From positions 1 through 31,027 of the IMG/VR virus record IMGVR_UViG_3300035214_000246: 31,027 nucleotides of DNA; one strand, given 5' to 3'. Shown here piece by piece: positions 15,114-29,002 of this stretch; the first letter of the stretch is position 1; every line of letters begins with the position of its first letter. The translations under genes were made by a program, and so were the position numbers. This DNA is from a virus (taxonomy: Duplodnaviria > Caudoviricetes). The notes under the pieces are model-generated. The model searched no databases and was not told where the DNA came from. It was given only the letters and a program-made list of their open reading frames with translations.

Positions 15114-15938
15114 ATGACGCAATTAATTAATCCTAAAAAATTTACAGATGTAACGGGCCGTTTACGGTCCTTTTTTTTGGGTAAAAATTTCCAAGAAGTA
15201 CATACACAAAATCGGTTAAGCATATTAGCCGCTTGTGAAGACCCTCAAACAGTCTCAACCTATAATTACTCAGGTCAAGTCTGGCCATTGCCACAAACAG
15301 GCCAGATGTGGCTCGAATATGAATTGCTTAAGAACCCAGCTGTGCCTGGGTTTTTTTGTATTAGCACTTCCTATAGACAAGAACCACATCCTATAAAAGG
15401 ACGACACGATTTAATATTTCCAATGTTTGAATTTGAGTTCCCTGGAACAGTAGTGGAATTAGAAGCTATGGAAAAAGAGTTACTTGAATACTTAGGTTAT
15501 TGCAATAAAAATACTATAGTTGTTAAAAATTATACTGAATGGGCAGATAGCTTTGGAGTAGAAGAATTAACACATAAACACGAAGAATTAATGTGTAAAA
15601 ATAATCGTGTGTGTATGATTAAAAACTTTCCAAATTATACTAGTCCATTTTGGAATATGAAACAAAATGGTAATAATACAGCATCTAAAATTGATGTAAT
15701 TATTGCAGGACAAGAGACAATAGGGTCAGCTGAAAGATCATCAGATCCGGAACAAATGAAAAAACAATTTCATACAATTAGTGGTGGTTTGTATGCAGAA
15801 TTATTGTTTGGACAATTTGGAAAAGATAGAGTAATTAAAGAATTAGATGACTTTTTGGAACTAGATTTTATACCTAGAGTTGGTGGAGGTATAGGATTAA
15901 CTAGATTAATAAGAGCCGACACAATAATGAATAATTAG
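15114..15938 (+). CDS. class IIb aminoacyl-tRNA synthetase catalytic domain only (Asn-synthetase-like or EpmA-like paralog)
   Basis: motif 2 SYRQE..RHDLIFPMFEFE, ETIGSAER, motif 3 PRVGGGIGLTRL; no N-terminal OB anticodon domain; GGAGG RBS. Confidence 0.8.
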   Translation: MTQLINPKKFTDVTGRLRSFFLGKNFQEVHTQNRLSILAACEDPQTVSTYNYSGQVWPLPQTGQMWLEYELLKNPAVPGFFCISTSYRQEPHPIKGRHDLIFPMFEFEFPGTVVELEAMEKELLEYLGYCNKNTIVVKNYTEWADSFGVEELTHKHEELMCKNNRVCMIKNFPNYTSPFWNMKQNGNNTASKIDVIIAGQETIGSAERSSDPEQMKKQFHTISGGLYAELLFGQFGKDRVIKELDDFLELDFIPRVGGGIGLTRLIRADTIMNN

Positions 15939-15996
15939 TTATTTTTAACTTTTATTCTATAAATCTATTAAGCCATTCCTTTTCTTCTTTTTTTCA

Positions 15997-16024
15997 TTGC
16001 ATTATTATAAATTTAGTGTATAAT
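15997..16024 (+). promoter_or_regulatory. sigma70-type promoter of tmRNA
   Basis: TTGCAT-16 nt-TATAAT. Confidence 0.5.
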
Positions 16025-16029
16025 TATTG

Positions 16030-16276
16030 TTGTAACGTTGAAGTTATCATAATAGGTTATATGGACGTCGGGGCAGTACCGACCACCTCCACCAATATTA
16101 TACAAGTTTCGGGGGTGAACTAGGATCGACAGTAATTTAAAAGGTAATGGAGTTGCCCCGATGTAAGCTGGGTTAACGCGAACACACTTATAAATGCAGA
16201 TGAAAATCTAGCACTTGCGGCCTAATTTATAATTAGGTCCGGGGTTGGCAACTTACCTGGCAACAGAAAAGTTGCA
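16030..16276 (+). ncRNA. ssrA: permuted two-piece tmRNA (acceptor piece ~16030-16094, intervening segment 16095-16110, coding piece 16111-~16276)
   Basis: T-arm gtcgg-ggcagta-ccgac then CACCTCC-A-CCA; GGGGGTG at 16111 completes the acceptor stem with G3.U; tag frame 16196-16225 encodes ADENLALAA*. Confidence 0.93.
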
Positions 16277-16290
16277 CTTTGAAAGGGGAT

Positions 16291-16575
16291 ATGAGTAGTT
16301 TTAAAAAAGTTATAGATTTTTGGAAGCAAAGTTATGTGTCAGATCCGATAGCATTTTGTTTTGAAATGGCGTCAACAATATTTGTTATTATAGGGTCATT
16401 TGTTTTAACTATTACAATTTTAGATTTGAAGCCACATATTTTTATTCCTTTTTATTGGATTGGTAGTGTTGCAGGGTTTATTGGAGCATATCGCAGAACA
16501 TTACCTTGGATAATGGTTTTAACTTTTTGGTTCATTATTTTAAATAGTGTTGCCCTTTGGAGATTATTTTTTTAA
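16291..16575 (+). CDS. small membrane protein (about 3 TM helices)
   Basis: hydrophobic segments; ATG 16291 after AAGGGG is preferred to TTG 16279. Confidence 0.65.
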   Translation: MSSFKKVIDFWKQSYVSDPIAFCFEMASTIFVIIGSFVLTITILDLKPHIFIPFYWIGSVAGFIGAYRRTLPWIMVLTFWFIILNSVALWRLFF

Positions 16576-16583
16576 AGAAATTT

Positions 16584-16988
16584 ATGTCGATAAAAAATAA
16601 AATATCTGTATGGGGTGATAATTTATCATTACTTGAAGGTATAGATAGATTGCAGTATCTAGTAGATTTAGCAGATAAGAGAACTTCTTTATCTAGTGAT
16701 AAAAGAGTTGATGAAAATAAAATTGTTGGTTGCATATCTAAAATTTGGGTTGATATTAGATTAGAAAGTAATAAAGTTGTCGCTGATTACGATTCAGATG
16801 CAATGATAACAAAAGGAATAACAAGTGTAATTTGTGATTGTTTTACAGGTGCTACAAAAGAAGAAGCTGGTTCTGTTGTTGTAGAAGATTTTAAAAACCT
16901 TAATATTAAACAATTATTAACAGTACAGCGTCAAAATGGGTTAGGAAACCTTATCAATACAATTATAAACAAGTCCCAGAAGTTATAG
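16584..16988 (+). CDS. sufE: SufE sulfur acceptor protein
   Basis: RLQYLVDLA, KIVGCISKIW (catalytic Cys), DSDAMITKG, QRQNGL. Confidence 0.88.
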   Translation: MSIKNKISVWGDNLSLLEGIDRLQYLVDLADKRTSLSSDKRVDENKIVGCISKIWVDIRLESNKVVADYDSDAMITKGITSVICDCFTGATKEEAGSVVVEDFKNLNIKQLLTVQRQNGLGNLINTIINKSQKL

Positions 16989-17027
16989 TAGCAGTTAATC
17001 CTCGATTAGCATTAGTTTAAATAAACT

Positions 17028-17522
17028 ATGCAGGCTTTAATTAGAGGTATAACCGCAATCTTCGTAGCATTTTTGTTACTCATTGCAACACCATCTTTAA
17101 GTAGTTACTCTAAAGATAATAGTGCATCGTCTGAGAATTTTATTCTGGATTTTAAAATTAAAGAAAATTTTATTCTAGATTTTAAAATTAATATTTCATA
17201 TGGATTAGGTTGGCGAGTAGATGTACCAGATCCAATCGTAATTGTGCCTGGAAAAGAATATAAAATTAATCTTATGGTAATTAATGATCTGGAGTCAACT
17301 AAATTAGCGAGTGTAATGTGGGGATATTTGCCATCAGGAGTTGCAAAGTATATTACTATAAAAGAATGTTTTTGTTATAATATTAATAAGTTAGATGGTA
17401 AAAGAATATCAGAATTACCAATTATTTTAAGTATTGACCCAGCTATATTAAAAGATAGAAAATTTAAAAAAAATAAAAAAATATTAATCAGATTTAATTT
17501 TTATCCATATATAAAACGTTGA
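17028..17522 (+). CDS. divergent CtaG/Cox11-like copper chaperone
   Basis: N-terminal TM/signal, PG..Y, AKYITIKECFCY (CFC motif), ELPIILSIDP, final FNFY strand. Confidence 0.6.
   Translation: MQALIRGITAIFVAFLLLIATPSLSSYSKDNSASSENFILDFKIKENFILDFKINISYGLGWRVDVPDPIVIVPGKEYKINLMVINDLESTKLASVMWGYLPSGVAKYITIKECFCYNINKLDGKRISELPIILSIDPAILKDRKFKKNKKILIRFNFYPYIKR
17133..17192 (+). repeat. in-frame 30-nt tandem duplication
   Basis: gagaattttattctggattttaaaattaaa / gaaaattttattctagattttaaaattaat (ENFILDFKIK ENFILDFKIN). Confidence 0.9.
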
Positions 17523-17547
17523 CTATTATATAATTATAGCATATAAT
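17519..17547 (+). promoter_or_regulatory. sigma70-type promoter of the RNase P RNA/tRNA-Ser transcript
   Basis: TTGACT-17 nt-TATAAT; predicted start ~17553-17554 matches the start of P1. Confidence 0.75.
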
Positions 17548-17553
17548 AAGTTA

Positions 17554-17715
17554 CAATGAGTGTAATCGGACTATCGCTGGAAACAGAGGAAAGTCAGGAC
17601 ACAGGTGGATATGTGCAAGTCCAAATAGAGTGTTAACAACCACCGGGACACAGGGTAGGACGCAAAGGTAGATGATAGTCTAAAACAGAATCCTGCTTAC
17701 GGATTATATTCGTTG
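17554..17715 (+). ncRNA. rnpB: minimal RNase P RNA, catalytic domain only
   Basis: CR-I GAGGAAAGTC and CR-V ACAGAATCCTGCTTA; helices P1, P2, P3, P4 (bulged U), P5, P6, P15, P16 pair by hand; no P7-P14. Confidence 0.88.
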
Positions 17716-17722
17716 CAAACCC

Positions 17723-17812
17723 GGAAGGGTGGCTGAGCGGTTGAAAGCACTGGTCTTGAAAACCAGCAAAGATGCAAGTCTTTCCAGAGTTCGAATCTCT
17801 GCCCTTCCGCCA
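17723..17812 (+). tRNA. tRNA-Ser(TGA)
   Basis: GGAAGGG/CCCTTCC acceptor stem, anticodon arm ctggt-cttgaaa-accag, long variable arm, GTTCGAATC, G discriminator and encoded CCA. Confidence 0.96.
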
Positions 17813-17833
17813 GTTAATAAGGAAGGAAAAATT

Positions 17834-18073
17834 ATGGATGAAAATGATATAAAATTAAGTGAAACTTATGAAGTCATTTGGAGTGAAGTAGGTAAGTTAA
17901 CAAATAAAGGTACAGAACCACTTATGATTGCTGGAACATTAATGGCTCAAGCTATGAGGTTATATAAAACAGCTTTATCAGAAGATGACTATGGTAGAAT
18001 GATGCAGTCAATTATGGATAGTAAAGATGACGTAAAACCGTATGGACCAAATGATAAGACTATGTTGCACTAA
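17834..18073 (+). CDS. hypothetical protein (79 aa)
   Basis: start moved to ATG 17834 after AAGGAAGGA; the longer call overlaps tRNA-Ser. Confidence 0.7.
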   Translation: MDENDIKLSETYEVIWSEVGKLTNKGTEPLMIAGTLMAQAMRLYKTALSEDDYGRMMQSIMDSKDDVKPYGPNDKTMLH

Positions 18074-18103: not shown

Positions 18104-18469
18104 ATGACATATTACGTAAATCAAAATTGTATTAAATGTAAATTGACAGATTGCGTTGAAGTATGTCCAGTCGACTGTTTTTACGAAGGCGAAAATATGC
18201 TCGCGATTAATCCTGATGAGTGCATAGATTGTGGAGTTTGTGAACCTGAATGTCCAATTGATGCAATTAAACCAGATAGTTTTGAAGAACCAGATAAGGA
18301 AAAATGGATAGAAACTAATAAAAAAGTTTCTTCAGGTGAAGATCGTTGGCCAGTTATAACAAAAATAAAAGAACCTATGTTAGACTCTGACACATATAGA
18401 CCAGAGAATTATGGAAAAGATAAGTCTGAATTCTTTTCAGATAAGCCTGGAACCGGAGATAAGAAGTAA
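18104..18469 (+). CDS. fdxA: FdxA-type dicluster ferredoxin
   Basis: [18 protein letters not shown] and [12 protein letters not shown]. Confidence 0.92.
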
Positions 18470-23129: not shown

Positions 23130-24392
23130 ATGAGCAACAAAGAACTTAAAATGAAATGTTCGTTTTGCGAAAAGACTAGAGCTGAATCTCATAAATTAAT
23201 AGCAGGACCTAAAGGAACATTTATTTGTGATGAATGTGTAAAGCTTTGCCACGATATTTTAAAAGAAGGAACGGCTGAAAATGAGTCAAAAGAATTTGCA
23301 ATCCCTGATCCAAAGAAGTTACACAGTTTTTTAAATAAACATATTATTGGTCAAGATAGAGCAAAGAAAATTGTGAGTGTAGCAGTTTATAATCATTATA
23401 AAAGAATTGTTAATAATTTAATAAAAGAAGATGGGCAAGATGAAATTGAAAAATCAAATGTATTAATTCTTGGGCCATCTGGTGTTGGAAAAACACTTAT
23501 AGCAAAAAAAGTTGCTGAATATGTAAATGTGCCATTTGCTATTGCTGATGCAACTACAATTACTGAATCTGGGTATGTTGGTGATGATGTTGAAAACATT
23601 GTAACTAGATTATTACAACAAGCAGAATTTAATGTTGGAAAAGCTGAACGTGGAATTATATACATTGATGAAATAGATAAGAAAGCTAAAAAAGGTGAAA
23701 ATGTTTCTATAACAAGAGATGTATCTGGAGAAGGTGTTCAACAAGCTTTATTAAAAATTATTGAAGGTACAACTATTAGAGTTCCCCCACAAGGCGGTAG
23801 AAAACATCCTGGTGCAGAAATGATTGAAGTTAATACAGTAAATATATTGTTTATTGTTGGAGGAGCATTTGTTGGAATAGATAAAGTTATTAATAAAAGA
23901 GCTAACAAGTCGTCGGGAATTGGATTTAATCAATCAGTTACTTTAGTTGATACTGAATTTGACGAATGCGAACCAGATGATTTAATTAAGTACGGATTAA
24001 TACCTGAGCTTGTTGGTCGTTTACCAGTAATAGTAGGATGTCATAGTTTAAGTAAAGAAGATTTAAAAGCAATTATGTTAGATGTAAAGAATTCATTAGT
24101 TAAACAATCTCAACGTTTGTTTAAAATGGAAAAGGTAGATCTAATATTAACTGATGACGCAGTTGACTATGTAGTAGATGAAGCATATAAAAAGAAACTT
24201 GGTGCTCGTGGATTAAGAGCTGTATTAGAGAGTGGGTTATTAGAAATACAGTATGAGTTACCAGAGTATAGCGATAGTGGAGTAAAAGAAATAACAGTAA
24301 GTAAAAAAACATTAAAAGGAGAAAAACCAATGCTCACTTATGAAATGAGTGTTGAAAAAAATAAAGATAACGGTACAGATGCAAAAGTATGA
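23130..24392 (+). CDS. clpX: ATP-dependent Clp protease ATP-binding subunit ClpX
   Basis: zinc finger CSFC..CDEC, Walker [13 protein letters not shown] pore loop, [19 protein letters not shown] loop, IGF loop, GARGLR. Confidence 0.97.
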
Positions 24393-24955
24393 AGCAAAGA
24401 TTTAGTATTAACATTAACAAAAATCAATTCAGAAAACAACAAGCATTAATTAATCATAATATTAGATCTAAAGAAGTTAGGTTAATATTAGAATCATCAC
24501 AAGATATTATTAGTACGCAAGAAGCAATAAGTTTAGCTAAACAACAAGAGTCAGATTTAGTATGTGTTAGTACAAAGTCAAATCCACCTATTTGTAAAAT
24601 TATGGATTATGGAAAATATTTGTATGAGCAAAAAAAGAAGCAAAAGTTGGCAGATAAAAAGCAAAGAGAAGCAATTGTTGATTTAAAAGAAATACAGTTT
24701 AGACCAGCAACAGGTATAGGTGATATAAAAGTAAAAACTAAGAAAATACAAGAAATTTTAGATGGTGGAGATAAAGTAAAATTAATAATGAAATTACGTG
24801 GTAGAGAGAATGCTATGAAAGATTTTTGTATGGAAAAGTTTAAAGAATTCCTTACATTTGTGGAAAATTATGACTTTGATTATAGACCTAGCATTCAAGG
24901 TAATAAAATACTTGCAATTTTAAGAAAGAGTGTTATAATAAAGAACAATGACTGA
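24389..24955 (+). CDS. infC: translation initiation factor IF-3
   Basis: [43 protein letters not shown]. Confidence 0.93.
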
Positions 24956-25304
24956 GAAACCTAGAAAAAAGTACGACATTAAACAGTACAGTAATTTTGG
25001 AAAGTTTGATTCAAAGCCTTTTAAAAGAAAAAGACGTGAACCAGATCCACCAGGGTTAGCTGTTGCAGTTGATGGTGAAGACGTAATGAAGGCTTATCGA
25101 AGGCTTAAAAAGAAGATTCTTAAAGATGGACTTATGGATGAAATAAAAGAGAGAAAATATTATAAGAAGCCAAGTGAAAAAAAACAAATAAAATTAAAAG
25201 AACAAAGAAGAAATATGATGAAAGCCCAAAGAGAACGTGCTATGGAATATGGTATAAGATTTAAAAATTATGATCCTAACACAGCAAGAACTCGTGGCTA
25301 TTAA
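24948..25304 (+). CDS. rpsU: ribosomal protein bS21 with N- and C-terminal extensions
   Basis: VAVDGEDVMKAYRRLKKK...G...EIKERKYYKKPSEKK. Confidence 0.88.
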   Translation: MTEKPRKKYDIKQYSNFGKFDSKPFKRKRREPDPPGLAVAVDGEDVMKAYRRLKKKILKDGLMDEIKERKYYKKPSEKKQIKLKEQRRNMMKAQRERAMEYGIRFKNYDPNTARTRGY

Positions 25305-25662: not shown

Positions 25663-25738
25663 GGGCGATTAGCTCAGTTGGTAGAGCACCTCGTTTACAC
25701 CGAGGGGGTCATAGGTTCGAGCCCTGTATTGCCCACCA
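25663..25738 (+). tRNA. tRNA-Val(TAC)
   Basis: cloverleaf, anticodon arm cctcg-tttacac-cgagg, encoded CCA. Confidence 0.96.
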
Positions 25739-25739
25739 C

Positions 25740-25816
25740 GGGGGTGTAGCTCAGTTGGTTAGAGCGTCCGCCTGTCACGCGGAAGGCCGAGGGTTCGAGT
25801 CCCTTCATCCCCGCCA
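25740..25816 (+). tRNA. tRNA-Asp(GTC)
   Basis: cloverleaf, anticodon arm tccgc-ctgtcac-gcgga, encoded CCA. Confidence 0.96.
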
Positions 25817-25833
25817 TATAGTTAAATAACATT

Positions 25834-27039
25834 ATGCTTACAATAAGAGAACAATTTCCGATATTTAAAAAACTATTGCCAAATGGTAAGAAGTTAGTAT
25901 ATCTTGATAGTGCTAACTCTAGTCAAAAACCTCAAAGGGTAATTGATAGATTATCAAAATTTTATTCTGAAGAATACAGTAGTGTTGGAAGAAGCATACA
26001 TCAATTAAGTACAATAGCTCTGATGTGTTTAGAAAAAAGTAGAGTAGCAGTAGCAAAGTTTTTAAATGCTCAATCTCAAGATGAAATTGTTTTTACTAAG
26101 AGTGCCACTGAAGCAATTAATACAATAGCAGAAAGTTTTGGAAGGACTCAACGTGATCATTATGAAATAATTTGTTCTGAGTTAGAACATAACTCAAATT
26201 ATCTTCCTTGGCATTTACAAAGAGCTCATAAAAATGCTACAATTAAGTTTATTCCTCTTAAAGATGACTATACATTAGATATGGAACAGTTACCTAAATT
26301 AATTACTGAAAAAACTAAAATAATTACAATTACACATTTATCAAATGTTACTGGAGAAGTAGTTGATATTAAAAAGGTTTGTGAAATTGCACATAGCAAA
26401 GGTATACCAGTTTTTGTCGATGGAACTCAAGGTGCACCACATATGAAAGTTGATGTACAAGATTTAGATTGTGATTTTTATTGTATTAGTGGTCATAAAA
26501 TGTATGGCCCATCAGGTGTAGGTGCCTTATATGCCAAAGAAAAATGGATAGAAGAATTATCACCTTATCAAGGAGGTGGTGGTACAGTTCTTGATGTAAC
26601 GAAAAATGTAATACAATATGCGGATGGCCCAAAAAAATGGGAAGCAGGTACACATCCAGTTGCAGAAATTGTAGGACTTAAAGAATCAATAGATTTTTAT
26701 TCTGATACTGGATTTGATAATATGTTAAATCACGAAAAACAATTAATGGAATACTTATATGAGAAGTTAGCACTTGATAATGATGTTAAAATATTATGTG
26801 GAAATAAACCTAAGGCTGTATTGTCATTTAATACAAAAGGAATACATCACGAAGATATGGCAATATTTCTAGATGCATATGGTATAGCTACAAGGCCAGG
26901 CCAGCATTGTGCTATGTTATTTCATAAAAGGTTTGGTTTAACTGGTTCAGTTAGAGTATCTTTAGGTGTATATAATACTAAAGATGAAATGGATTTTTTC
27001 TTAGAAGCATTAAGTGAAATTAAGAAAAGACTGTCCTAA
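25834..27039 (+). CDS. sufS: cysteine desulfurase, SufS type
   Basis: YLDSANSSQKP, SGHKMYGP (PLP lysine), RPGQHCA (catalytic Cys). Confidence 0.93.
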   Translation: MLTIREQFPIFKKLLPNGKKLVYLDSANSSQKPQRVIDRLSKFYSEEYSSVGRSIHQLSTIALMCLEKSRVAVAKFLNAQSQDEIVFTKSATEAINTIAESFGRTQRDHYEIICSELEHNSNYLPWHLQRAHKNATIKFIPLKDDYTLDMEQLPKLITEKTKIITITHLSNVTGEVVDIKKVCEIAHSKGIPVFVDGTQGAPHMKVDVQDLDCDFYCISGHKMYGPSGVGALYAKEKWIEELSPYQGGGGTVLDVTKNVIQYADGPKKWEAGTHPVAEIVGLKESIDFYSDTGFDNMLNHEKQLMEYLYEKLALDNDVKILCGNKPKAVLSFNTKGIHHEDMAIFLDAYGIATRPGQHCAMLFHKRFGLTGSVRVSLGVYNTKDEMDFFLEALSEIKKRLS

Positions 27040-27045
27040 TTACCA

Positions 27046-27074
27046 TTGACTAATACATAAGTATTTTATATAAT
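27046..27074 (+). promoter_or_regulatory. sigma70-type promoter of rplL-sufB
   Basis: TTGACT-17 nt-TATAAT. Confidence 0.7.
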
Positions 27075-27113
27075 AATATTGGCTATAAATTAAATATAAT
27101 AATAAGGAAAATT

Positions 27114-27578
27114 ATGTCGGACGAAGAAGCAAAAAAAGTTGAAGAACCTAAAGTTGAAGAAAAACCAGCTGAAATTAAAGCTGAAGAAACATCTAAAAAA
27201 ATTACAAGAAATTTAGATGCTATAGTTGAAGAGTTAGGACAATTAACAGTAATGGAAGCGGCTGATCTTGCCAAGAAATTAGCTAAAGCTTGGGATCTTG
27301 ATTTAGACGCTCTTACATCTGCTCCAACGGCACAGGCAGGAGCGACTGCTCCAGCTGAAGAAAGTGCAACAGTAACAATAGTTTTAAAAGAATTTAAAGA
27401 AGGTGCTAAAATTAATGTACTTAAAGCTGTTAAAGTAATTTTAGGAATAGGGTTAATGGAATCCAAAAATTTTATCGAGGATTTACCTAAAGAAATAAAC
27501 CAAGAAGTTCCAAGAGATAAAGCTGAAAAAATTAAAAAACAATTAGAAGATGCTGGTGGAACTGTAGAATTCAAATAA
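27114..27578 (+). CDS. rplL: ribosomal protein bL12 (L7/L12) with an E/K-rich N-terminal extension
   Basis: [16 protein letters not shown], Ala-rich hinge, [14 protein letters not shown]..., [16 protein letters not shown]. Confidence 0.9.
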
Positions 27579-29002
27579 TGTTAGATGAGTTACAAGTAGA
27601 TAAAGAATATAAAGAAGGTTTTACTACAGATGTTGAATCTTATACCCTTCCTGCAGGACTTAATGAAGATGTTATTAAAAAAATTTCAAGTTTTAAAAAA
27701 GAACCACAATGGCTTTTAGACTGGAGATTAGAAGCATATAAAATTTGGTTGAATATGAAACAACCTGCTTGGGCAGAACTTAATATTAATCCTATTGATT
27801 ATCAAGCAATATCATATTATTCAGAACCTAAATCTAAATTAAAATCAATGGACGAAGTAGATCCTGAAATTATTAAAACATTTAATAAGTTAGGCATTCC
27901 TTTAAATGAACAAAAAGCATTAGCAGGTGTGGCCGTTGATGCTGTATTTGATAGTGTATCAGTTGCTACTACATATAAGAAAGATTTAGAAAAAAAAGGT
28001 ATATTGTTTTGTAGCTTTGGAGAAGCAGTACAAAAATATCCTGATATAGTTAAAAAATATTTAGGTAGTGTAGTACCAAAAAGTGATAATTATTTTGCTT
28101 GTTTAAATTCAGCAGTATTTACAGATGGTTCATTTGCTTATATTCCAAAAGGAGTTAGATGTCCAATGGAGTTGTCTACATATTTTAGAATTAATGCGGC
28201 CAACACAGGACAATTTGAAAGAACGTTAATTATATGTGAAGATGATGCATACGTATCTTATTTAGAAGGTTGTACTGCACCAATGAGAGATGAAAATCAA
28301 TTACACGCCGCAGTTGTCGAATTAGTAGCAAAAGAAAATTCTCAAATAAAGTATTCAACAATACAAAATTGGTACCCAGGTGATGAAAATGGAAAAGGCG
28401 GCATATACAATTTTGTAACTAAACGAGGAAAATGTCAAGGACGTAAAAGTAAAATATCTTGGACACAATTAGAAACAGGGTCGGCAATTACTTGGAAATA
28501 CCCTTCTTGTGTATTAATGGGAGATGAATCGGTAGGTGAATTTTATTCTGTAGCAGTAACAACTGGAAAGCAACAAGCAGATACTGGTACTAAAATGATT
28601 CATTTAGGAAAGAATACAAAATCAACAATTATATCAAAAGGTATTTCTGCAAAACAAGGAAAACAAACTTATAGAGGTTTAGTATCAATGGGTAGTAATA
28701 CTGAAAAGTCAAAGAATTTTACACAATGTGATTCACTACTTATTGGTAATGAGTGTTCAGCACTTACTATACCTTATATTAAATGTAAAACAAAGTCTTC
28801 TAAATGTGAACACGAAGCTACAACGTCAAAAGTTTCAGATGAACAATTATTTTATTTGAGATCAAGAGGACTTAAAGAAGAAGATGCTGTAAATCTAATT
28901 GTAAATGGATTTGTCAAAGATGTAACTAAACAGTTACCTATGGAATTTGCCGTTGAAGCTAATAAGCTTTTAACAGTAACATTAGAAGGAGCAGTAGGAT
29001 AA
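27578..29002 (+). CDS. sufB: Fe-S cluster scaffold protein SufB
   Basis: [43 protein letters not shown]. Confidence 0.97.

What the first reader, a model, noticed from the sequence alone, without database searches (positions are those of the whole stretch)
17519..17812. Mini RNase P RNA and tRNA-Ser form one transcript with a 7-nt linker
Seen: one TTGACT/TATAAT promoter, then the ribozyme, then CAAACCC (17716-22), then tRNA-Ser, with no room for a promoter or terminator between them. A single RNase P cut at 17722/17723 would mature the tRNA 5' end and the ribozyme 3' end together. Inference: tethering, or intermolecular cleavage between transcripts, could compensate for the missing S-domain, a 5'-side analogue of tRNA-associated self-cleaving ribozymes in phages. 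A 7-nt linker may be too short for true cis cleavage.
Basis: partly seen in the sequence, partly recalled or inferred. Interest (0 to 1): 0.7.

Follow-up and report, generated by a model that had tools for sequence, protein, structure and literature searches.

The report
Phage mini RNase P leads tRNA
A large phage carries a 160-base gene for only the catalytic half of RNase P RNA (the ribozyme that trims new tRNAs) directly in front of a tRNA gene; related phages keep this layout with four different tRNAs, and the pair is likely made as one RNA and likely cut apart by another RNase P molecule rather than by itself.

Summary
A near-consensus promoter (17519-47) precedes a ~160-nt RNase P RNA with P1-P6, P15 and P16 but no S-domain, P18 or P19; a 7-8-nt linker and tRNA-Ser follow. 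42 of 44 mini-clade loci (redundant records included) run straight into a tRNA (Ser, Ala, Asp or Gln), against 0 of 29 alphaproteobacterial rnpB genes. One marine RNA-library contig spans the junction. The 'tether replaces the S-domain' idea is poorly supported. Full-length viral RNase P RNAs abut tRNAs too, two mini loci have no tRNA, and a complete 328-kb relative has an 85/90-identical tRNA-Ser untethered and 14 of 15 tRNAs untethered. In a published test, 3'-end fusions of archaeal RNase P RNA did not self-cleave. Best reading (0.6, inferred): the RNA borrows host RnpA, works in trans, and uses the tRNA as punctuation for its own 3' end, as S. pombe mitochondrial rnpB does. True cis cleavage: about 0.1. 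Catalysis is untested. I found no paper on phage RNase P RNA in nine searches that could have shown one. This scan noted the same RNA family before on other DNA; one check there marked the claim in doubt, reason not shown.

The parts
17519..17547 (+). sigma70-type promoter (-35 TTGACT, 17 nt, -10 TATAAT); the -35 overlaps the stop codon of the upstream CtaG/Cox11 gene
   Evidence: same position in 43 of 43 mini-clade loci
17555..17714 (+). Catalytic-domain-only RNase P RNA, about 160 nt (162 if it starts at 17554)
   Evidence: RF00010 73.1 bits, E 1.4e-20; 24 of 48 pairs with changes on both sides in 21 homologs
17555..17567 (+). P1 5' strand; pairs with 17702-17714
   Evidence: 10 of 13 pairs with two-sided changes
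17569..17586 (+). P2 5' strand (17569-75, pairs with 17674-80) and 3-bp P3 with GAAA loop (17577-86)
17591..17599 (+). P4 5' strand with bulged U17594; pairs with 17691-17698 (catalytic pseudoknot)
   Evidence: 8 of 8 pairs; recoded but still paired in L385, found without using P4
17600..17615 (+). P5 closing a 10-nt loop that replaces the whole S-domain; 17604-08 is the P6 5' strand, pairing with 17640-44
   Evidence: a 4-6-bp Watson-Crick P6 in 21 of 21 homologs, in several different sequences
17616..17661 (+). J5/15, P15, L15 with the GGU motif (17654-56) that pairs with the tRNA 3' RCCA in bacterial RNase P, and P16
   Evidence: role of GGU from PMC11143913 passages
17715..17722 (+). 7-8-nt linker: 3' tail of the ribozyme and 5' leader of the tRNA
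   Evidence: single-stranded in the fold of the fusion; 3-8 nt and not conserved in sequence across homologs
17723..17812 (+). tRNA-Ser(UGA) with encoded CCA
17834..18073 (+). 79-aa ORF of no known family, likely on the same primary transcript
   Evidence: no Pfam or PHROG hit; follows the tRNA in most Ser-type loci
15981..16278 (+). Two-piece alphaproteobacterial-type tmRNA; points to the host class and is a possible further substrate
   Evidence: RF01849 131.5 bits
25663..25816 (+). tRNA-Val and tRNA-Asp, 1-nt spacer, not tethered to the ribozyme

Best explanation
This is a phage gene for a catalytic-domain-only RNase P RNA placed as the 5' leader of a tRNA, likely co-transcribed with it and likely released by an ordinary RNase P cut made in trans. 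Steps: (1, shown) own promoter, folded C-domain, 7-8-nt linker, tRNA with CCA. (2, inferred, one RNA contig) host polymerase makes a ribozyme-tRNA-ORF precursor, and the tRNA 3' end is formed first. (3, inferred) another holoenzyme, the host's at first and later perhaps the phage's own, cuts at 17722/17723, so the tRNA gets its 5' end and the ribozyme its 3' end without needing a terminator. (4, inferred) the freed RNA binds host RnpA, since the phage encodes none, and cuts in trans. It would hold substrates by the acceptor stem, the 5' leader and CCA:GGU pairing instead of the tRNA elbow. The tRNA link is a biogenesis device shared by phage RNase P RNAs of all sizes, not a substitute for the S-domain.
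For: Fold with covariation. Link in 42 of 44 loci with four partner tRNAs in different gene neighbourhoods versus 0 of 29 cellular alphaproteobacterial rnpB. The same layout occurs in full-length viral RNase P RNAs. Complete relative G001: one ribozyme, 15 tRNAs, all with encoded CCA, only Ala tethered; its tRNA-Ser is 85/90 identical and untethered. No RnpA (0 of 5 records in each), no HARP over cut-off, no separate S-domain in G001 or the window with controls detected. A 254-nt RNA-library contig starts about 2 nt from the predicted start and bridges the junction, so uncut precursor is seen. Literature passages: S. pombe mitochondrial rnpB ends at the 5' cut of the next tRNA (PMC6097661); bacterial C-domains are active, and only 40-fold down with the protein in B. 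subtilis (PMC2475606; PMC11143913).
Against: No catalytic data. The RNA also lacks P18, whose deletion cut E. coli RNA-alone rate over 3000-fold (PMC11143913 passage). The J5/15 adenosine I equate with E. coli A248 is G in 8 of 21 homologs, and the bulged U is A in L385. Invariance of P4 in the main set is circular, because the set was found by a P4 pattern. The mini clade is linked more often (4 of 6 neighbourhoods) than chance placement would give, which leaves room for a function beyond biogenesis. The RNA evidence is one contig from one study, and contigs cannot show strand, ends or level.
Confidence: 0.6

Rival explanations
1. Cis self-cleavage: the ribozyme cuts its own attached tRNA, and the tether makes up for the lost S-domain.
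For: Tight link and short linkers. Tethering at the active site reduced the S-domain deletion penalty to 12-fold in an archaeal construct (PMC2475606). Recalled, not seen: E. coli M1 RNA fused upstream of a pre-tRNA self-cleaved in cis depending on spacer length (Kikuchi 1993). A rough reach estimate does not exclude the window's own 8-nt linker if fully stretched.
Against: In PMC2475606 fusions to the natural 3' end with 25- or 50-nt spacers did not cleave; only attachment at L15 worked. Ala-type loci have 3-4-nt linkers behind 9-11-bp P1, too short by the same rough estimate. Full-length viral RNAs are tethered too. L017 and L385 have no tRNA. One cis cut would serve 1 of 15 tRNAs. Uncut fusion is seen in an RNA library.
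Confidence: 0.1
2. Non-catalytic decoy or scaffold: the RNA keeps the C-domain to bind host RnpA (damping host RNase P) or to shield the attached tRNA, and only the host enzyme cuts.
For: No S-domain or P18; no phage RnpA; changes at catalytic-core positions in some homologs; uncut fusion seen.
Against: L15 GGU, P15, P6 and P16, which serve substrate binding rather than protein binding, are kept with covariation. P4 stays fully paired even when recoded. The phage needs RNase P for its own tRNAs and tmRNA.
Confidence: 0.15
3. Specialist enzyme: loss of the elbow-reading domain retunes it for non-tRNA or awkward substrates such as the two-piece tmRNA, tandem tRNAs with 1-nt spacers, or host hairpin RNAs, while host RNase P handles ordinary tRNAs.
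For: 4.5S RNA processing does not need an intact S-domain (PMC11143913 passage). The window and G001 encode a two-piece tmRNA and tRNA pairs with 1-nt spacers.
Against: No substrate data. T4 tandem pre-tRNAs with a 3-nt spacer are handled by host RNase P.
Confidence: 0.12
4. Decaying remnant, assembly collapse, or half of a split RNase P RNA.
For: Below the Rfam gathering score. Short RNase P-like matches that look like collapsed cellular genes do occur in the metagenome and genome hits.
Against: 29 distinct units share the same deletion with compensatory changes. No S-domain found elsewhere in a complete relative. Present in an RNA library.
Confidence: 0.03

Closest known systems
Bacterial type A RNase P RNA (Rfam RF00010; E. 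coli M1 RNA, rnpB)
   Same: P1-P5, P4 pseudoknot with bulged U, P6, P15, P16, L15 GGU, conserved regions I, IV, V
   Different: 160 nt versus 338-485 nt in the alphaproteobacterial sample; no S-domain, P17, P18 or P19; phage-borne without rnpA; leader of a tRNA (0 of 29 cellular controls)
[quoted passage not shown]
   Same: Natural RNase P RNA with a shrunken S-domain and an intact catalytic core (PMC7191817, PMC13462272 passages)
   Different: Type T keeps a hairpin with one T-loop that reads the tRNA elbow and uses archaeal proteins; here 10 nt remain, 5 of them P6, and the sequence is bacterial type A
S. pombe mitochondrial rnpB between two tRNAs (tRNA punctuation)
   Same: 3' end of the RNase P RNA coincides with the 5' cut of the next tRNA (PMC6097661)
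   Different: Organelle, not phage; its 5' end comes from an upstream tRNA, here from a promoter; the cut here is not mapped
Theta ribozymes of gut phages (PMC10879173)
   Same: Phage ribozyme next to a tRNA gene, tied to tRNA end formation
   Different: HDV-like, proposed to process the 3' trailer in cis; here an RNase P fold on the 5' side, likely acting in trans
Engineered C-domain and pre-tRNA-RNase P RNA conjugates (PMC2475606)
   Same: S-domain-less RNA (135 nt) joined to a pre-tRNA
   Different: Active only when the substrate was attached at L15; attachment at the natural 3' end, as here, gave no cis cleavage
Minimal fungal mitochondrial RNase P RNAs (Saccharomycopsis fibuligera, about 150 nt)
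   Same: Similar size (PMC3790967 passage)
   Different: Those keep little beyond P1 and P4 and lean on large proteins; this one keeps the full bacterial catalytic domain

Membership tests
Bacterial type A RNase P RNA | P4 pseudoknot (CR I/CR V) with bulged U | tested here: met
   8 of 8 pairs, U17594 bulged
Bacterial type A RNase P RNA | P1-P3 with covariation | tested here: met
   10 of 13, 6 of 7 and 2 of 3 pairs change on both sides
Bacterial type A RNase P RNA | P5, J5/15, P15 and L15 GGU motif | tested here: met
   the first J5/15 A is G in 8 of 21 homologs
Bacterial type A RNase P RNA | P6 pseudoknot and P16 | tested here: met
   P6 4-6 bp in 21 of 21; P16 99% paired; P17 absent
Bacterial type A RNase P RNA | S-domain (P7-P14, CR II/III) | tested here: not met
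   155 model positions replaced by 5 nt; none found elsewhere in G001 or the window
Bacterial type A RNase P RNA | P18 | tested here: not met
   24 model positions replaced by 0
Bacterial type A RNase P RNA | RF00010 gathering score of 100 bits | tested here: not met
   73.1 bits
Bacterial type A RNase P RNA | Cleaves pre-tRNA 5' leaders with RnpA | not testable with these tools
   needs an assay; no rnpA in the phage records searched
[quoted passage not shown] | Remnant S-domain hairpin with one T-loop | tested here: not met
   only a 10-nt loop, half of it P6; definition from PMC13462272
[quoted passage not shown] | Best match within the RNase P clan is an archaeal model | tested here: not met
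   RF00010 is the best of the clan
Theta (HDV-like) ribozymes | HDV-like fold at the tRNA 3' side | tested here: not met
   RNase P fold on the 5' side; no HDV-like Rfam hit up to E 1
tRNA-punctuated RNase P RNA (as S. pombe mitochondrial rnpB) | RNase P RNA gene abuts the 5' end of a tRNA | tested here: met
   42 of 44 loci
tRNA-punctuated RNase P RNA (as S. pombe mitochondrial rnpB) | Mature 3' end maps to the tRNA 5' cut | not testable with these tools
   only contigs were available, which cannot show ends

The most novel reading that the evidence does not exclude
A natural enzyme-substrate fusion: the phage's 160-nt RNase P RNA, with no S-domain at all, cuts itself off its own tRNA (in cis or in a precursor dimer) and so replaces elbow recognition with a covalent tether, then goes on as the smallest bacterial-type RNase P ribozyme.
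Probability: 0.12. Interest if true: 0.9.

Novelty: new variant of a known kind. Interest (0 to 1): 0.66.

Why it matters
RNase P RNA is treated as a cellular gene whose S-domain measures the tRNA. Here a virus keeps a natural, covarying RNA with no S-domain, shorter than type T and close to the engineered minimal core. It makes directly testable whether a bare C-domain plus host RnpA is enough in nature, and why phages carry the RNA halves (RNase P RNA, tmRNA) but not their proteins. The family spans 150 to 380 nt in viral contigs, a natural deletion series for structure work. The tRNA link shows tRNA punctuation, known from mitochondria, at work in phages. The narrower claim of the finding, a tether that replaces the S-domain, would be far more striking but is unlikely.

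Tried and rejected
Cultured phages: blastn of 17540-17830 against 50,697 records; the 40 rows listed of 738 cover only the tRNA part, and none covers 80% of the query. Cellular origin: 46 pattern hits in 185,579 species genomes, none of the mini clade. Chance pattern hits were dropped by P4 pairing, e.g. L005/L011/L013. Split gene: no S-domain in G001 or the window. Phage protein partner: RnpA 0 of 5 twice, HARP none over cut-off, SmpB 0 of 5, CCA-adding family absent from G001, G002 and G407 but present in G408 and G409. Host naming by ClpX was uninformative: 51-57% identity across the listed matches, genomes unnamed. The tree of 25 core sequences had 2 starred branches of 22, too weak to count partner switches, so I used gene neighbourhoods. 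Lack of RNA cover on the flanks is no evidence, since flanking proteins of close relatives are only about 50-75% identical. Run X1 did not cover the ribozyme. A hairpin between the linker CCC and the tRNA 5' end was considered; it is not conserved and not in the fold. The reach estimate uses assumed lengths, no coordinates. Kikuchi 1993 was not held and no citing text was found.

Full report
Setting. The window is a whole 31-kb virus record. It carries virion structural proteins, ribonucleotide reductase and a PAAR protein beside bS21, bL12, IF3, ClpX, SufB/S/E and CtaG, and a two-piece alphaproteobacterial-type tmRNA. 34 of its 39 proteins hit G001, a complete 328-kb phage with terminal repeats. 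So this is a piece of a jumbo phage; an alphaproteobacterial host is inferred from the tmRNA type.

Observation. All coordinates are right. The promoter scores 11 of 12. Such sites are common in this AT-rich DNA (45 found, 43.1 expected), but all 43 mini-clade loci scanned have one with a 17-nt spacer just before P1. No terminator-like site lies in or after the unit, and an ORF starts 21 nt after the CCA, so the primary transcript likely runs on.

The RNA. RF00010 matches 17558-17715 at 73.1 bits, E 1.4e-20, below the cut-off of 100 because 155 S-domain positions shrink to 5 nt and P18 to nothing. All 48 pairs I drew for P1-P6, P15 and P16 are standard pairs in the window. In 21 homologs 90.6% of cells pair and 24 of 48 pairs change on both sides; shuffles and slid registers fall far below (related sequences can beat shuffles anyway). 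The 10-nt loop that replaces the S-domain holds the 5' strand of P6, a 4-6-bp pseudoknot in 21 of 21. The L15 GGU is invariant. P4 invariance in this set is circular, so I searched again without P4. That returned the six known viral minis plus L385, a 158-nt member whose P4 is recoded but paired, with A at the bulge, and L380, a ~200-nt variant. The first J5/15 adenosine (E. coli A248 by recalled numbering) is G in 8 of 21.

The tRNA link. Pattern scans gave 10 viral, 119 metagenome and 46 genome loci in the short size range. 43 loci, counting the window and redundant records (29 distinct units), belong to the mini clade; none is from the genome collection. 41 are followed by a called tRNA (19 Gln, 11 Ser, 8 Ala, 3 Asp), one contig ends inside tRNA-Asp, and L017 runs into an ORF. 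With L385, which has no tRNA, the count is 42 of 44. Linkers are 3-8 nt; the Asp group reads 10-11 by strict count and 4-5 if P1 continues past a bulge. Linker sequence is not conserved. Neighbouring genes differ by group: Ser loci lie between CtaG or SufE and the 79-aa ORF, Ala and Asp loci before SufS, Gln loci at the head of small tRNA blocks. By neighbourhood, 4 of 6 are linked. Counting Ala and Asp as one, 3 of 5 placements at about 0.027 each would have a chance near 2e-4 (my arithmetic, rough). Control: 0 of 29 alphaproteobacterial rnpB loci have a tRNA downstream within 1.5 kb (31 loci given, 2 did not match the pattern). The link is real and selected.

Is it compensation for the S-domain? 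Three more scans gave 33, 39 and 75 larger viral loci. 20 of 20 tested loci hit RF00010. After dropping poor P4 matches, truncated loci and near-copies, a tRNA follows within 35 nt of P4 in 2 of 2, 16 of 33, 10 of 26 and 15 of 45 loci by rising size; short versus longest p = 0.12. The longest class includes host genes on prophage flanks, which dilutes it. Among loci with any tRNA nearby the figures are 16 of 25, 10 of 20 and 15 of 28. Of 14 long loci picked for having an adjacent tRNA, 13 pass the full RF00010 cut-off (151-349 bits), and linkers are 8 nt or less in 9 of 17 of the longest class. So RNAs with an S-domain are tethered the same way. In G001 the single ribozyme leads tRNA-Ala. Its tRNA-Ser, 85 of 90 identical to the window's, sits at the syntenic place 20 nt behind an ORF with no ribozyme. 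14 of its 15 tRNAs are untethered; all 15 encode CCA.

Expression. A 254-nt contig of depth 17.8 in a marine RNA library (run X2) aligns from 17558 to 17764 with 9 differences and bridges the junction. It begins 2 nt before 17558. Its 45 loose letters read as the rest of a different tRNA-Ser and by my count end within the CCA; only the first 30 were shown. Two differences turn G-U pairs of P1 into G-C and U-A. This is one contig, one study, from a relative; contigs cannot show strand, ends or level. It fits a precursor with a formed 3' end and an uncut leader, and sits poorly with fast self-cleavage.

Mechanism. No RnpA, HARP or separate S-domain was found in the phage records searched, so any holoenzyme would use host RnpA. 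From passages of PMC2475606: the B. subtilis C-domain is 25,000-fold down alone but 40-fold down with protein; a tether at L15 cut the S-deletion penalty to 12-fold; fusions at the natural 3' end with 25- or 50-nt spacers did not cleave (data not shown there; archaeal RNAs). Against this, I recall that E. coli M1 RNA fused before a pre-tRNA self-cleaved in a spacer-dependent way (Kikuchi 1993; not held). A rough reach estimate leaves the 8-nt Ser linker borderline and the 3-4-nt Ala linkers too short unless P1 frays. In S. pombe mitochondria the rnpB 3' end coincides with the 5' cut of the next tRNA (PMC6097661 passage). I therefore favour release in trans and tRNA punctuation (0.6) over decoy (0.15), specialist (0.12) and cis compensation (0.1).

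Novelty. Nine library searches that could have shown it listed no paper on phage RNase P RNA; I saw listings and abstract starts, and only 26-30 rows where more matched. Term look-ups found no 'RNase P' in the huge-phage survey PMC7162821 and no phage RNase P in the passages shown from PMC8172020, PMC7191817, PMC11143913, PMC10879173 and two preprints. All papers were seen as passages only; supplements were not read and may list such genes, and most subscription journals are not searched. It works like the C-domain of type A RNase P RNA but fails the S-domain, P18 and score tests, and it is not type T or a theta ribozyme. I class it a new variant of a known kind. Earlier notes of this scan describe the same family on other DNA; two carry a remark that the same claim was found in doubt elsewhere, with no reason shown. 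New here are the test of the tRNA link, the controls against compensation, the two tRNA-less members and the junction contig.

Noticed in passing
viral loci L133-L165, L212-L324: A graded series of viral RNase P RNAs from about 190 to 380 nt, many inside tRNA arrays with tRNAs on both sides; most short ones fall below the Rfam cut-off.
   Followed up: partly
L385:343-500 (-): Mini RNase P RNA with a flipped P4 pair and A in place of the bulged U, no tRNA downstream.
   Followed up: partly
L017:388-550 (-): Mini RNase P RNA followed 14 nt after P1 by a ribosome-binding site and ORF instead of a tRNA.
   Followed up: partly
L027, L032, L109 (metagenome contigs): GC-rich ~150-nt RF00010 matches (37-47 bits) with similar flanks and no tRNA; another minimal lineage or assembly collapse.
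   Followed up: no
window 15981-16278: Two-piece tmRNA with tag ADENLALAA, same tag in G001; no SmpB found in G001 or G002, so again the RNA without its protein.
   Followed up: partly
window 25663-25816; G001 100065-100216 and 276800-277031: Tandem tRNAs with encoded CCA and 1-nt spacers (Val-Asp; Arg-Gln; Ile-Val-Asp), which one RNase P cut could separate.
   Followed up: no
window 16557-17522, 18104-18469, 25834-29002: Phage-borne SufE, SufS, SufB, ferredoxin and CtaG/Cox11; relatives show SufC-like and cytochrome b-like neighbours, the latter named from recall.
   Followed up: no
window 24389-25304, 27114-27578, 15114-15938: Translation genes IF3, bS21, bL12 and a class II tRNA-synthetase-like catalytic domain; a bL33-like ORF (named from recall) precedes the ribozyme in some Ala loci.
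   Followed up: no
L090 downstream of tRNA-Ser: The usual 79-aa ORF is replaced by an ORF that looks like the start of an integrase (recalled likeness), suggesting an element inserted at this tRNA.
   Followed up: no
L186, L201 (genome collection): Short RNase P RNAs in tRNA arrays on contigs of an Acidobacteriota and an Elusimicrobia MAG; possibly binned phage DNA.
   Followed up: no
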